A DNA stretch of 64,000 nt from NCBI GenBank assembly GCA_964016885.1, contig OZ024743.1, positions 108,314,001 to 108,378,000 on the forward strand, given 5' to 3'. A program made the position numbers and the translations under genes. Shown one piece after another: positions 1,285 to 42,930 of the stretch. This DNA is from Eledone cirrhosa (Eukaryota). A model generated the notes under the pieces. The model was not told the DNA's origin, did not search any database, and saw nothing but the letters and a program-made list of their open reading frames with translations. Each line of letters starts with the position of its first letter. Position 1 is the first letter of the stretch.

Positions 1285-1648
1285 ATAAATTAATAAAAAC
1301 AAAGAAATAAACACAGAGACCGTTCCTTATAATAAAAAAAATCATTATTTACGATCGTTTCTGGGATGTATATGTGTGTTGGTATGTATATCATCTAGAT
1401 CTATGTAAACATATTACAATTATCAGAGGAAATATACATACCTTCACATATACACATACATTTCTGTGGACGGCATGTATATGTGAAGGTATCTATATTT
1501 CCTCTGATAATTTGTAATATTTTAACACAGATCTAGATGATATACATACCAACACACATATACATCCCAGAAACGATCGTAAAATGCTGATTTTTTTAAT
1601 ATAAGGAACTTGGTTTTTCTGTTTATTTTATTGTTTTTATTAATTTAT
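1285..1648. mobile_element. Foldback (inverted-repeat) element with a hammerhead-like motif, Penelope pLTR-like
   Basis: Arms of about 170 bp (1285-1454 vs 1476-1648) are reverse complements, e.g. tttacgatcgtttctgggatgtatatgtgtgttgg / ccaacacacatatacatcccagaaacgatcgtaaa; the right end runs into (TA)n. Confidence 0.75.
1459..1586 (+). ncRNA. Type I hammerhead-like ribozyme, one core substitution, long stem II
   Basis: Stem I cattt(1459-63)/aaatg(1582-86); core CTGTGGA (1464-70; consensus CTGANGA); stem II atgtatatgtg/cacatatacat; GAAAC-gatc-GTA (1570-81) with palindromic stem III. Confidence 0.6.
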
Positions 1649-2512
1649 ATATATATATATATATATATATATATATATATATATTATATATACAATGTGT
1701 TTAAAACGATTAAATTTTAGTTTAGAACATTTATTAGTTGACAATTGTTTCTTCCAGAGGGAAGTCTCGATTCTTCGGAGGATAAGGAATGTCAAAAAAC
1801 ACTTGAAAATTTGCATTGAGCCTTTTGTCATATCGGTACCGGTTAGTACTTAGTACTACCCTACATATTTATTGTTGTATCAAACATATATAAATATAAA
1901 TATAAATATTACTAGTATATATATATATATAGATATATATATATATGTATGTATATGTATATGTATATGTATATGTTGTATGCATGTATGAATGTTTCTT
2001 TGCGGAGAGAGACTCGTCATCTTCATCAAGATATATCTCTAGGAGAGTTCACTGTGATATGAACCTGCGACTTTGTTTGCATCAATGATGTAGATCAGTT
2101 CTTTTTTTTGGGGGGGGGGGGGAGTGGGGGGAAGGGTGTCAATGCATTCGATGTTTAGAGAATGCGATTGACCCCTTGCAAAGCCTTTCCTCACTTAAAA
2201 AAGCTTCAAGCACAGGCATCGCTTGATATTTGACTTTGTTTGCGATGCAAAGCATGACTGACCACAGGTAAGTCCCCTAGAAGGACTTAAAATGATCTCA
2301 TATATAAGTATCAAGCGATGGCATTACCCCGAAATCGAGTTGCAGCCATTATGTATGTGTATATGTGTATGTGTGTGTGTGTGTGTGTGCACACCCGCAC
2401 GTGTATGTATGTATGAGAGAGAGAGAGAGATAGTAAATGAGTATATCGGATTTCCGTCGGTCCAGATAAGTTCTTATATTGTGTTTTGAACACAGTATTC
2501 TGCTTTTAACAT

Positions 2513-2733
2513 TAATGTACAAGTGGCTGAGCATTTGCCAAGGGCTTCTTACACTAATTTGGTTCTCGAGGTGATTCAACGTGACGGAGTTTCACACAAT
2601 TATATCTATTTGAATCAAATGTGCAACTGATTTTTTCCAGCTTAGATGATTCGGACCACGCAATGCTGGGACTGGAATTCACAAGATTACGATCGTGATC
2701 CGAACAGTCTAACTACAAAGCCACGTACCTTCA
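2513..2733 (-). mobile_element. Old SINE, second family, decayed
   Basis: Weak similarity to 31060-31330 (ttaatgtacaagtggctgagc vs ttaacgtgcaagtaggtgagc; acgatcgtga vs acaatcgtga); tRNA-like head at the right end. Confidence 0.4.
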
Positions 2734-2770
2734 TGTGTAGTACGTAAATATAATATATCTACAACACATT

Positions 2771-38719: not shown

Positions 38720-39860
38720 GATGATAATGTTGAGTGCAGTGGTTGTGTGTTGGTGGAGGTGATGGTATTGTCGGTGGTGGATTTGGTGGGAGTAGTGGTG
38801 TGGCTGGTGTTGTTGTTGTTGTTGTTGGTGGTGGTGGTGGATATGGTGGTAGTGGTTTTGGTGGTGCTGGTGGTGGTGGTGGTGGTGGTGGTTGAGCTTG
38901 TGGTGGAGGTAATGGTGGAGACGACGGCGACAAAGACGAGTGTGTTGATGATGATGATGATGATGATGATGGAAGCAGAAAGAAAGATAGAAAGAAGTGG
39001 AGAAAGAAAAATGGTATTGGCATTTTGATTGGGGATGCATATTTCTTTGAAAATATCGCCGCGAAACTCAATCAGTGTGATGAAAGGCAGGAGTGAAGTG
39101 GGAGCTAGGATTGGAAAGGAAGGAGAGGGGGAGATAGAGAGGGGTAGAGATGAATGATAGGTGATGACAGGGTGTGAGTTTGGAGGCAGTGTTGTTTGAA
39201 GGAATTTGAATGAAGTTAGACAAACGATGAATGAATGAAGTGTAGTTTGATAGCAAAATAAAAAAAAGAAAATAACAAGAAAAAAGAATACAAAATATGT
39301 ACAAATAAATAGTGAACAAATGATGGATTAATGAAAGATGTCGACGGGGAAGGGCGAGGGGCGGATGGGAGGTAGAGGAGGATAAAAAAGGAGGGAATAT
39401 GAAGAGTTGAAGGAGAAATCCGACGAGAAAGAAGTGATGGAATGCATTACTAAATAAAATCGATGTGTCCCATTCAACAACCCGATTGAAGATGTATCAT
39501 CACCATCACCATCACCATCAATATTGTTAACATCATCAACAGCTTCCCCAACATCATCATCATCATTATCAGTGTCATCATCATCATCAGTGTGGTCATT
39601 ATTATCATCGTCATTATTATCATCATCATCATCCCCGTCGGCGCCATCATCATCATCATCATCATCATCATCAATGTGATCATCATCATTGATATCATTA
39701 TTGTCATCAAATGTAGCAGAATTATATGTTTCATCATCATCATGATCAACAGCAGCAGCGGAATGGCGACCACCATCACCACCACCACCACCACCACCAC
39801 CGTCAACATCGAAATCATCATATCCATCACTATCATCAACATCATTACAATCATCATCCA
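38720..39860. repeat. Degenerate trinucleotide tracts (GGT/GTT/GAT at 38720-38970; CAT/CAC at 39490-39860)
   Basis: Direct inspection; open in several frames on both strands. Confidence 0.85.
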
Positions 39861-42590
39861 TTTCCAATTTAATATAAGTTCTGTATTTAGTCCTTACCAT
39901 TCATGTTAAATATGTCTAAAAGCCTACCGCCTGCCCCTATCAATCTCATGTGATCTATTTCTCTCCATCTATCTATATCTCCTTGTCTCTCTCTCTCTCT
40001 CTCTCTCTCTCTCTCTCTCTCTCTCTCTCTCTCTCTCTCTCTCTCTCTCTCTCTCTATCTATCTATCTATCTATATATATCTATCCATCTCTCTTTCTCT
40101 CTCTCTCTCTCTGGTTCCTTCCTCATGAATTTAATATTTTAGTTAACACGCACGCACACGCATACATTTATATCTATATACATATGTGTACACGCACTCA
40201 TACATATATGTGCGCGTGTGTGCGCGTGTGTGCGTATATATATATATATATATATATATATATATATATATATATGCGTGTGTGTGTGTGTATGTGTGCG
40301 TCGATATAACTCTCCATCTTTATTTCCCCGTTCTCTCTCTCTCTCCACCCCTCTCTCTCTCTCAGTATATATACTCGATTATTCTACTATATATATATAT
40401 ATATATATACATATATGAGAGTGTGCGTGTGATTCTGCGATAGTGCGTGTGCGTGTGTGTGAGAATGTGTGTATGCGTGTGTGTGTGTGTGTCTGTGTGC
40501 ATGCGTGTATGAGAGTGTACCGCTTAGATGTATCCACAGACGCTGCATTCGTGTATTTTTTTATGTGTTACATACCTCAACAACTCAAACAATTTATATT
40601 TTAGTGAAATTATAAAGAAGGGAAATATATGAAAAAAAGTGCTTGCGTGTTTTAACAGATAAACGTGGGAAAAATGTGTAGCATGAAATATTGAGAACAT
40701 AAATTATGACAGAAATAGTAACAAATGGATATATATATATAAATATATATATATATATATAAAGAAACTAAGCAACGAAAGTAGGTATAAATATCAAGAG
40801 AGAAGAGGATACATGTATATATATGTATATATGTATATATATACATATATATTTGTGTGTATGTGTGTCTGTGCTTGCGCGTGTGTGAGTATATATGTGT
40901 GTGTGTATATGTATAAGCACACATATATATATATATATATATATATATATATATATATATATATATATATATATATATATATATATATATATATGTGCGT
41001 GTATGTGTGTGTCTGTGTATTTATGTGTATATTCGTACGACTATACATACATACAAGCATACAGTCTTATATATACACTCTCATACATACAATCATGTAA
41101 TATGTGTTTGTTGATATGCATATATAGAGAGGAAGTCGTGGTATAGATGTGAGCATATGTGCCTCTCTGTATATGGGTACATGTATCTCTCTTAATCCTT
41201 CTCTCCTTCGCAATTCCTCCGCCGTCTCTCAATTTCTCCCTTACTTTCTACATTTGTGTTTGCGTATGTATTAATACGTGTGGATGTGTCTTTATCACAT
41301 TTTCTCTCTTCCTCAATCACTTATTCGTCTCTCTCACTTTTCCTCTCTATATATGTTTCTGTAGGGGTTTATACATATGTGTATGAATGTATGTGTGCTA
41401 TTTCACTGTATGTGTCCATACATCTGTATCTTTCAATCAATCTTCTCTCCATATTTTCTCTGCCAATCACTCGATTTCTCTCTCTATCACTCTAGGTACC
41501 CCTCCCCCTCACTCTCTCTCTCTCTCTCTCTCTTACTTTCATTGTGTATACATGTGGGTTGATGTATGGATTTATACTTGCGTACATGTCTGTGTATGCG
41601 TGTGTTCATATGCGTGTATTTGTATATGTGTTTCTCTGTGTAACTGTGTGTGTGTGTGTGAGTATGCATATATGGCTGTGATGAAAGTTATTAAAAACTG
41701 CTTAAGGCCCCCCAACACATCTTAGCAGATTAAAAATACCGAAGAAAGGAACGAGAACTCTATAACTATATAAGGAATACAATGTGTTAGAAACATGGAC
41801 TGACACGAGCAAAAGGGATGTAAAAAGAGCTACAATAAAACAAAACAAAAAACAAGTATAAAAGAAAAGAAATATATATAAAATAGTACAAAGTGGGCTC
41901 CAGGAAAGTAATTTCAATATGGACTTATAGGTAATGGGGATGGGAAAAGAACAGGCAAGTAACTAGCAATAAGACTATAAAGATTGAATACAATAAACAA
42001 ATAGGAAACCAGTAGGAAATAAAGGAAAAATTGATAATCAAAATGGTGGATAGCAAATGTATATATGTACGAATGTATGTATTATATATACACACATATA
42101 TATGTGAGTGTGTGTGTGTTTGCGGGTGTGTGTATGTGTCTGTCTGTGTGTATCCGTTTGTGTGTATGTATATATATATATATATATATATATATATATA
42201 TATATATATATATATATGTATATATACGTATAGATTTGGAGTCACCAGTTTAGATAGTAGGATCAACTAAGTACCCGATAGTTGGGAGAGTAGAGTATTG
42301 CAATACACACACACACACACACACACACACACACACACACACACACACACACACACACACACATATATATATATATATATATATATATATACACTGATAT
42401 ACTGATATACACACATACACACACACACACACATATATATATATACAGGATAACAAAATATCGTCATAGGTAATCCAGTTAGAGGTTGTGAATACTTCTT
42501 ATTATGGATAGTTTTGACTCAACAAGAGGTTTACGTAGATGACGAGTTTATGATTTCACTTGTAATCCTATGTAAGTTTATATTGGAGTA

Positions 42591-42930
42591 ATAAAATAAA
42601 AAAAGTGGAGAATAACATGGTCAACAGTACAGAAAAGGGGATTCATTTACAGTCTAACAATTGTTTCACTGATAAAGATGTCTAAAAATTACTGAACACT
42701 AGAAGCAGTGCCACTCAATTTTAAATACGATCTTAGCTCGATCAGATCTTCCGAAACTGTTTAGTCTCAGAAGATCTGATCTTGCTAACATTGTATTTAA
42801 AATTGAGTGACACTGCTTTCATTGATCACCAATGTTTAGACATCTTTATCAGTGAAACGATTGTTAGACTGTAAATAAATCCCCTGTTTGGTACTGTTGA
42901 ACATGTTATTCTCAACTTTTTCAATCTTAT
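42591..42930. mobile_element. Foldback element made of two head-to-head hammerhead-like motifs
   Basis: 168-bp arms 42591-42758 and 42763-42930 around a 4-nt loop gttt; the right end abuts (TA)n. Confidence 0.8.
42763..42870 (+). ncRNA. Type I hammerhead-like motif with an approximately 80-nt stem II region, core position 4 altered
   Basis: agtct-CAGAAGA-t ctgat...atcag t-GAAAC-gatt-GTT-agact, then AATAAA; the left arm reads agttt-CGGAAGA...GAAAC-aatt-GTT-agact on the minus strand. Confidence 0.55.

What the first reader, a model, noticed from the sequence alone, without database searches (positions are those of the whole stretch)
1285..42930. Recurring architecture: unrelated foldback hairpins whose symmetry axis coincides with a hammerhead
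Seen: three hairpins with no obvious sequence similarity fold at the ribozyme. In 1285-1648, stem I and the core lie in the hairpin loop. In 42591-42930, stem I begins at the first base after the 4-nt loop. In 15761-15886, the axis is 20 nt upstream of GAAAC, i.e. in the stem II position. In each, one arm ends in (TA)n and the other continues into a unique leader. Inference: these MITE-looking palindromes are retro-derived pLTR foldbacks whose inversion point is set by the ribozyme structure; repeat annotators would likely mislabel them as MITEs.
Basis: partly seen in the sequence, partly recalled or inferred. Interest (0 to 1): 0.75.

Follow-up and report, generated by a model that had tools for sequence, protein, structure and literature searches.

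The report
Penelope back-to-back mini insertions
These hairpins are very abundant, back-to-back stubs of three Penelope-type jumping genes, and their centres pile up at one spot that is likely where the element's RNA begins rather than where its ribozyme folds or cuts, which gives a testable clue to how this poorly understood class inserts.

Summary
The three hairpins are real, and each arm is the hammerhead-bearing end (pLTR) of a different Penelope-like element (PLE). Parents carry RT plus GIY-YIG-type ORFs; one intact copy has every Hydra-clade mark. Layout: (TA)n, inverted tail, inverted arm, tip, arm, (TA)n. This is the shortest form of the known inverted-pLTR, one-sided-tail insertion, not a MITE. 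The axis lies at stem I in families 1 and 2 but in the stem II loop in family 3 (32,703 motif hits), where the core is absent from the hairpin. Arms do not pile up at the cleavage site. In family 3, exact-motif counts fall from 7,988 to 4,466 across three bases at an Initiator-like hexamer, then stay level (4,503) through the core and stem I. Best model: both nicked strands prime cDNA, both run off the RNA 5' end, and the two are joined. Against it: no cap-G excess, a weak hot spot in family 2, most ORF-bearing copies start further upstream, and no RNA data. This scan reached the same reading before, on other DNA of this genome and in other genomes.

The parts
1151..1284 (-).
   Evidence: Conserved in 18 of 18 aligned copies; continues the arm in long parent copies
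1285..1454 (-). Family 1 inverted pLTR arm (tail-bearing); lacks the core in this copy
1459..1648 (+). Family 1 pLTR arm without tail, with a type I hammerhead (stem I 1459-1463, mutated core 1464-1470, long stem II, GAAA 1570, cut after 1581); ends in (TA)n
15684..15760 (-). Family 3 tail, 77 nt; in the intact parent it is the start of the 5' UTR
15761..15821 (-). Family 3 inverted pLTR arm (tail-bearing)
15822..15825 (.). Family 3 tip, next to the Initiator-like +1 of the parent; differs from copy to copy
15826..15886 (+). Family 3 arm without tail: 3' half of the hammerhead (GAAAC 15844, stem III, cut after 15866); no core; ends in (TA)n
42450..42590 (-). Family 2 tail
42591..42758 (-). Family 2 inverted pLTR arm (tail-bearing), mutated core
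42763..42930 (+). Family 2 arm without tail, with a type I hammerhead (stem I from 42763, mutated core 42768-42774, GAAA 42854, cut after 42865); ends in (TA)n
52799..52900 (+). Second family 3 insertion: part of the inverted tail joined directly to the tail-less arm, between (TA)n tracts

Best explanation
Each hairpin is a head-to-head pair of short 3' pLTR ends of a Hydra-clade Penelope-like retrotransposon sitting in (TA)n, likely built afresh at each insertion when both nicked DNA strands prime reverse transcription and both cDNAs run off the likely 5' end of the RNA inside the pLTR. Shown: PLE origin; two fixed outer ends (pLTR end and tail end); a sharp inner limit in families 3 and 1; copy-specific joints. 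From published work on another PLE: the protein nicks and extends both strands and starts at two internal RNA sites that define the tail (PMC11167929); the Penelope transcript starts inside the pLTR at a TATA-less internal promoter (PMC2377424). Inferred: the inner limit is the transcription start at an Initiator-like hexamer (TCATTT in families 1 and 3, a CAGTT-type word in family 2; consensus recalled); priming on the 5' pLTR copy gives short run-off cDNAs; host end-joining fuses them with short overlaps or fillers; longer copies arise when RT uses the 3' pLTR or jumps template. The ribozyme lies at the axis because it lies at the start of the transcript. In hairpin RNA it would be locked in the long duplex.
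For: Intact parent L221: inverted tail-bearing copy, then pLTR-ORF-pLTR, 719 aa; model pLDDT 92.5, best PDB match telomerase TERT, E 2e-8; family 1 and 2 ORF pieces 46% and 34% identical to it. Tail-anchored samples taken in coordinate order on contig C1: family 3, 42 of 46 tail arms that reach +10 stop in -5..+10 and 0 of the 4 that pass stop in -50..-6 (two long copies already held as L221 were left out; with them 42 of 48); partner arms 43 of 43; 55 of 70 have an adjacent inverted partner. Family 1: 25 of 52 stop there, 1 of 27 in -50..-6. Genome-wide, family 3: 7,988 hits reach +1, 4,466 of the nested pattern reach -3, 4,503 hold stem I and core. Joints: 46 distinct in 55 (27 overlaps, 10 blunt, 18 fillers); 30 distinct tips in 35, two with A-run fillers right at the limit. 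Neither arm is regularly longer (22 v 26; 7 v 8). Several subfamilies each form hairpins with matching arms (54 of 63; 25 of 25 close pairs in the list, counted by eye). One locus (L336) has arms of two subfamilies at three linked sites. No private change is mirrored in family 3 (0 v 26 single-arm, 67 loci).
Against: No RNA evidence for the start site. No excess of an extra G before +1, which a copied cap would give: 9 of the first 100 listed in family 3 and 20 of 100 in family 1 (counted by eye; some parents vary at that base). Family 2 shows little pile-up: 2 of 42 arms by script, about 6 by eye, with 40 of 70 running upstream. Of 26 family 3 copies that run from tail into the 5' UTR, 13 of the 15 ORF-length ones begin more than 100 nt upstream of +1, so template jumps or longer RNAs must be assumed. 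The Initiator match is a short, common word. In family 1 it coincides with stem I, and in family 3 it flanks a small predicted hairpin in loop II. Matching arms fit single-cDNA snap-back as well. Tip variety could partly arise after insertion. Older families show mirrored private changes (17 and 19), which suggests later arm-to-arm conversion.
Confidence: 0.58

Rival explanations
1. One reading: the folded ribozyme stalls RT or makes the cDNA fold back, so ribozyme structure sets the axis.
For: Family 1 stops coincide with the 5' strand of stem I (24 of 70 within 5 nt). The family 3 limit is the first base of the 3' strand of a predicted small hairpin in loop II.
Against: Family 3: 0 of 70 near stem I and no loss of copies across the core. 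The exact product of folding back on the loop II hairpin occurs once, and only 14 matches of that pattern class exist in the genome. RT passes stems I (3' strand), III and II before it stops.
Confidence: 0.15
2. One cDNA snaps back on itself (or an antisense RNA self-primes, as proposed in PMC3846280) and is copied to give the second arm, which then joins the target at a TAT microhomology.
For: Arms nearly always share the subfamily haplotype (54 of 63); tips are close to symmetric; 27 of 55 joints overlap by 1 or more bases.
Against: No consistent longer arm; family 1 joints mostly have fillers between two arms that both end at the limit (19 of 25); one two-subfamily chimera (L336); the tail-less end is as fixed as the tail end (46 of 55 at one base), as expected for a second RT start site.
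Confidence: 0.15
3. The limit is a DNA-level event: the element's own endonuclease cuts at an ATT-like site in the pLTR, or longer palindromes are trimmed after insertion.
For: The Anolis PLE endonuclease prefers ATT and cuts its own pLTR junction (PMC11167929); the limits in families 1 and 3 begin with ATT; perfect palindromes are unstable (established knowledge).
Against: Trimming would not give a step followed by a plateau. Many other ATT words in the pLTR and UTR show no pile-up (bins).
Confidence: 0.1
4. The hairpins are MITEs moved by a DDE transposase.
For: Short, palindromic, high copy number, TA flanks.
Against: The two outer ends are not inverted repeats of each other; tips are not inherited; arms are the 3' ends of RT-encoding elements and grade into kilobase-long head-to-head pairs.
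Confidence: 0.01

Closest known systems
Inverted-pLTR insertions of endonuclease-positive PLEs with a one-sided tail (PMC8557442 fig. 2 legend; PMC3846280; PMC2377424 fig. 1C legend)
   Same: Head-to-head inverted 5'-truncated copy, tail on one end only, palindrome at the inverted junction, Initiator-like word noted in a pLTR.
   Different: Here the whole insertion is often only the two pLTR stubs, in tens of thousands of copies; tails are 77-140 nt, not 30-40; the inner ends show a sharp limit.
Hydra clade of PLEs, including Hydra-1_Obim of Octopus bimaculoides (PMC8557442 section 11 and File S1)
   Same: About 3 kb unit, single ORF, RWR, DKT, CxCX5C, CxxC and CxH motifs, canonical-type hammerhead, (TA)n target.
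   Different: No sequence comparison with Hydra-1_Obim and no tree were made; family 1 and 2 ORFs have longer linkers.
PLE hammerheads of Cervera and de la Pena 2014 (PMC4209133)
   Same: Type I, short palindromic stem III (families 1, 2), U3-A8 core variant (family 3); that paper notes pairs of hammerheads 100-700 bp apart on opposite strands in Schistosoma.
   Different: Stem II is 55-100 nt; the first stem II pair is a mismatch in families 1 and 2; U4 is C in 35 of 79 family 2 copies.
Anolis Poseidon PLE in vitro (PMC11167929)
   Same: Both strands nicked and extended, two internal RT start sites defining the tail, ribozyme cleavage not needed.
   Different: Different clade; joining of two cDNAs was not examined in the parts read.
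Non-LTR retrozymes (bioRxiv 10.64898/2026.07.22.740005)
   Same: Non-coding, hammerhead-bearing, PLE-related.
   Different: Those are tandem direct monomers with whole ribozymes; these are inverted stubs, often without the core.

Membership tests
Hydra-clade PLE (parent elements) | Single ORF with telomerase-like RT | tested here: met
   719-aa ORF in L221; predicted fold matches TERT first, E 2e-8. Pfam and PDB sequence searches found nothing.
Hydra-clade PLE (parent elements) | C-terminal GIY-YIG endonuclease | tested here: inconclusive
   YIG-type motif and downstream R..H seen by eye in all three families; no Pfam hit on these proteins; PF01541 is listed on one homologue only; the domain was not fold-searched alone.
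Hydra-clade PLE (parent elements) | RWK-like and DKT motifs, CxCX5C linker, CxxC and CxH motifs | tested here: met
   All present in P0001 against the list; DKT and CxCX5C also in family 1 and 2 pieces.
Hydra-clade PLE (parent elements) | pLTR tandem and inverted structure, tail, (TA)n target | tested here: met
   L221; 51 of 56 family 3 tail ends are followed by (TA)n.
Hydra-clade PLE (parent elements) | Placement in the Hydra clade on an RT tree | not tested
   No reference sequences were fetched.
Type I hammerhead ribozyme | Conserved core and GAAA in type I order | tested here: met
   79, 79 and 13 distinct complete contexts; the free core position varies while its neighbours hold; family 3 has the U3-A8 variant in 10 of 13.
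Type I hammerhead ribozyme | Stems I, II, III with compensatory change | tested here: met
   Stem I pairs hold in most copies; two-sided changes in stem II of family 1 (A-T 47, G-C 20) and family 2 (A-T 29, T-A 19). Counts are copies, not independent events.
Type I hammerhead ribozyme | Closing pair 10.1-11.1 | tested here: inconclusive
   G-C in family 3 (12 of 13); C-A in family 1 (73 of 79) and T-T in family 2 (74 of 79).
Type I hammerhead ribozyme | Self-cleavage | not testable with these tools
   No assay; the window copies have mutated or missing cores.
MITE | Terminal inverted repeats at both outer ends and an inherited internal sequence | tested here: not met
   One end carries a tail; 46 distinct joints in 55 loci.
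MITE | Related DDE transposase element | tested here: not met
   Long copies sharing the termini encode RT; no genome-wide transposase search was run.
Non-LTR retrozyme | Tandem direct monomers each with a complete hammerhead | tested here: not met
   Inverted stubs; the family 3 hairpin lacks the core.

The most novel reading that the evidence does not exclude
The stubs are not only dead by-products: a copy that keeps the internal promoter makes a roughly 145-330 nt RNA from +1 through the tail, the PLE protein binds it in trans, and each new insertion rebuilds the palindrome from scratch. That would be a non-autonomous retroelement whose DNA form is a hairpin never encoded in its RNA, and PLE insertion would include a strong-stop-like step. 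It fits 26,521 tail hits against 26 exact tail-to-UTR hits in family 3 (the second pattern is subfamily-specific).
Probability: 0.2. Interest if true: 0.7.

Novelty: new member of a known kind. Interest (0 to 1): 0.42.

Why it matters
How PLEs make inverted pLTRs and one-sided tails is named as an open question in PMC8557442. Tens of thousands of near-identical minimal insertions with two fixed outer ends and a sharp inner limit give a base-level prediction for the RNA 5' end and for a two-primer joining step. They also warn that short palindromes in (TA)n in such genomes can be retroelement ends that Rfam and Pfam miss.

Tried and rejected
Axis at the ribozyme cleavage site: arms starting within 3 nt of it were 3, 0 and 1 of 70 (families 3, 1, 2), no clear excess. 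A canonical core directly before the family 3 right arm: 0 genomic matches; the true core lies 39 nt upstream of +1. Fold-back on the natural loop II hairpin: 1 exact match. Splice acceptor at the limit: arms run past the AG and no shared upstream exon appears at joints. Cap-derived G: not enriched. RNA support: no RNA holder listed; contigs of three public runs cover the family but cannot show starts. Rfam, Pfam and PDB sequence searches were blank. Target-site duplications cannot be read inside (TA)n. A genome-wide nested count for family 2 was not obtained, so that family rests on the 70-locus sample, where one reference fits several subfamilies poorly. Searches were biased towards copies shaped like the query and were not used for breakpoint statistics; their loci were included. 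Paper searches for a transcription-start or strong-stop account of inverted pLTRs listed none that states it; the library lacks most subscription papers, and Repbase or Dfam notes and unseen supplements may describe these families.
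Full report
Setting. The window lies in a 3.0-Gb animal genome, rich in microsatellites and a tRNA-type SINE (label recalled). An octopus is my inference, not something a call determined.

Observation. The three foldbacks are at the stated places. Hairpin 1 has stem I and a mutated core in the tip. Hairpin 2 has stem I starting right after the 4-nt loop. Hairpin 3 has its axis 20 nt before GAAAC. A relaxed type I descriptor matched hairpins 1 and 2 and 0 of 2000 shuffles of each; it was relaxed after the motifs were seen. 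Hairpin 3 holds only the 3' half of a ribozyme.

Families. Each hairpin with its leader is a repeat family. Exact short motifs give 519 and 515 arm hits for families 1 and 2, and 32,703 for family 3; tail motifs give 4,553, 510 and 26,521. The patterns differ in how many subfamilies they catch. Aligned copies share one layout: microsatellite, inverted leader, inverted arm, tip, arm, (TA)n. In family 3 the arms are about 98% alike between copies while the tips differ.

Parents. Copies that continue upstream of the ribozyme exist for all three families, often as head-to-head pairs 0.3-5.7 kb long. They hold RT and endonuclease-type ORF pieces. L221 is a complete family 3 insertion: an inverted 830-nt tail-bearing copy, then pLTR, tail, 5' UTR, a 719-aa ORF, 3' UTR, pLTR and (TA)n. 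The leader is therefore the PLE tail. The ORF has the RWR, DKT, CxCX5C, CxxC and CxH marks that PMC8557442 lists for the Hydra clade, and that paper's File S1 lists a (TA)n-targeting Hydra family from Octopus bimaculoides. Its predicted fold matches telomerase TERT best. Family 1 and 2 pieces are 46% and 34% identical to it. Pfam and PDB sequence searches were blank.

Ribozymes. Complete copies form type I hammerheads with a long stem II. Stems hold in most copies, with two-sided changes in stem II of families 1 and 2. Family 3 has the U3-A8 core variant reported in PMC4209133. Families 1 and 2 lack the usual first stem II pair. Rfam misses them. Activity is untested.

What sets the axis. I sampled 70 tail-bearing ends per family in coordinate order on contig C1 (two long family 3 copies already held were skipped) and mapped both inner ends on the parent. 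Position 0 is the A of an Initiator-like hexamer. Family 3: 42 of 46 tail arms that reach +10 stop in -5..+10, none stop in -50..-6 where core and stem I lie, and 43 of 43 partner arms stop in the same window. Family 1: 25 of 52, then 1 of 27. Family 2: 2 of 42 by script, about 6 by eye. The cleavage site is not a hot spot (3, 0 and 1 of 70). Genome-wide in family 3, 7,988 hits reach +1, 4,466 reach -3 and 4,503 hold stem I and core: a 44% step over three bases, then a plateau. The product of folding back on the small loop II hairpin occurs once. So the axis tracks one fixed point per family, which is stem I in family 1 but the stem II loop in family 3.

Made afresh. Joints are copy-specific: 46 kinds in 55 family 3 pairs, with overlaps, blunt joins and fillers, two of them A-runs at the limit. 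Several subfamilies each form hairpins whose arms match (54 of 63). One locus has arms from two subfamilies. Neither arm is regularly longer. Private changes are not mirrored in the young family (0 v 26) but are in the older ones (17, 19), which suggests later conversion.

Mechanism. Published: a PLE protein nicks and extends both strands, starts at two internal RNA sites that define the tail, and does not need ribozyme cleavage (PMC11167929). Penelope is transcribed from an internal promoter in the pLTR (PMC2377424). Inferred here: both primers copy the 5' pLTR of the transcript, run off its 5' end, and are joined. Against this: no cap-G excess, a weak family 2 signal, 13 of 15 ORF-length copies starting further upstream, and no RNA runs. 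Snap-back, ribozyme-induced stops and DNA-level cutting remain possible.

Known and new. Inverted 5'-truncated copies with a one-sided tail are described (PMC8557442; PMC8969392). Palindromes at the inverted junction were read as antisense self-priming (PMC3846280). Opposite-strand hammerhead pairs were noted in Schistosoma. A recent octopus repeat annotation has no passage on such hairpins under the terms searched (PMC13282606). I found no paper that ties the junction to the transcription start. Earlier notes of this scan reached the same reading, one in this genome; they are not independent support, and my reading was noted before that look-up.

What was read: PMC8557442 passages, section 11 and supplement rows; PMC11167929 parts 1-2 of 4; PMC2377424 passages; PMC4209133 part 1 of 4; PMC3846280 passages and Discussion; the 2026 bioRxiv preprint part 1 of 5, no supplements; PMC8969392 and PMC13282606 passages. 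The Initiator consensus, hammerhead numbering and the SINE label are recalled.

Verdict. Interest 0.42.

Noticed in passing
window 12431-13454: A fourth, longer head-to-head element between (TA)n tracts, with a canonical hammerhead core on each arm (12674 minus, 13317 plus) and a duplicated end segment; likely another PLE family.
   Followed up: partly
window 11500-11620, minus strand: A complete type I hammerhead (8-bp stem I, palindromic stem III) ending in (TA)n; likely a solo PLE end.
   Followed up: partly
window 7356, 21169, 32415, 33098, 59032: Further decayed hammerhead-core words, some followed by GAAA-like motifs or by (TA)n.
   Followed up: no
window 2771-2957 and about a dozen other places; 34250-34695: A roughly 190-nt tRNA-type SINE (label recalled); two copies lie head to head at 34250-34695. 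In other loci its 3' end is fused at ATT-rich spots of the PLE arms (L275, L279, L320, L423).
   Followed up: no
window 9221-9561 and 58501-58827: Two 91% identical copies of a 340-nt repeat, probably a LINE 3' end.
   Followed up: no
L223:2388-3176: Three family 3 hammerhead units in direct tandem about 210-230 nt apart, retrozyme-like.
   Followed up: no
L336: Family 3 hairpin whose two arms come from different subfamilies at three linked positions.
   Followed up: partly
L103, L208-L210, L043: PLE stubs nested in one another's (TA)n flanks, including across families.
   Followed up: no
family 2 subfamilies: The spacing between the Initiator-like word and the core differs among subfamilies, and several tips appear to follow the word rather than the core; seen by eye in a handful of loci.
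   Followed up: partly
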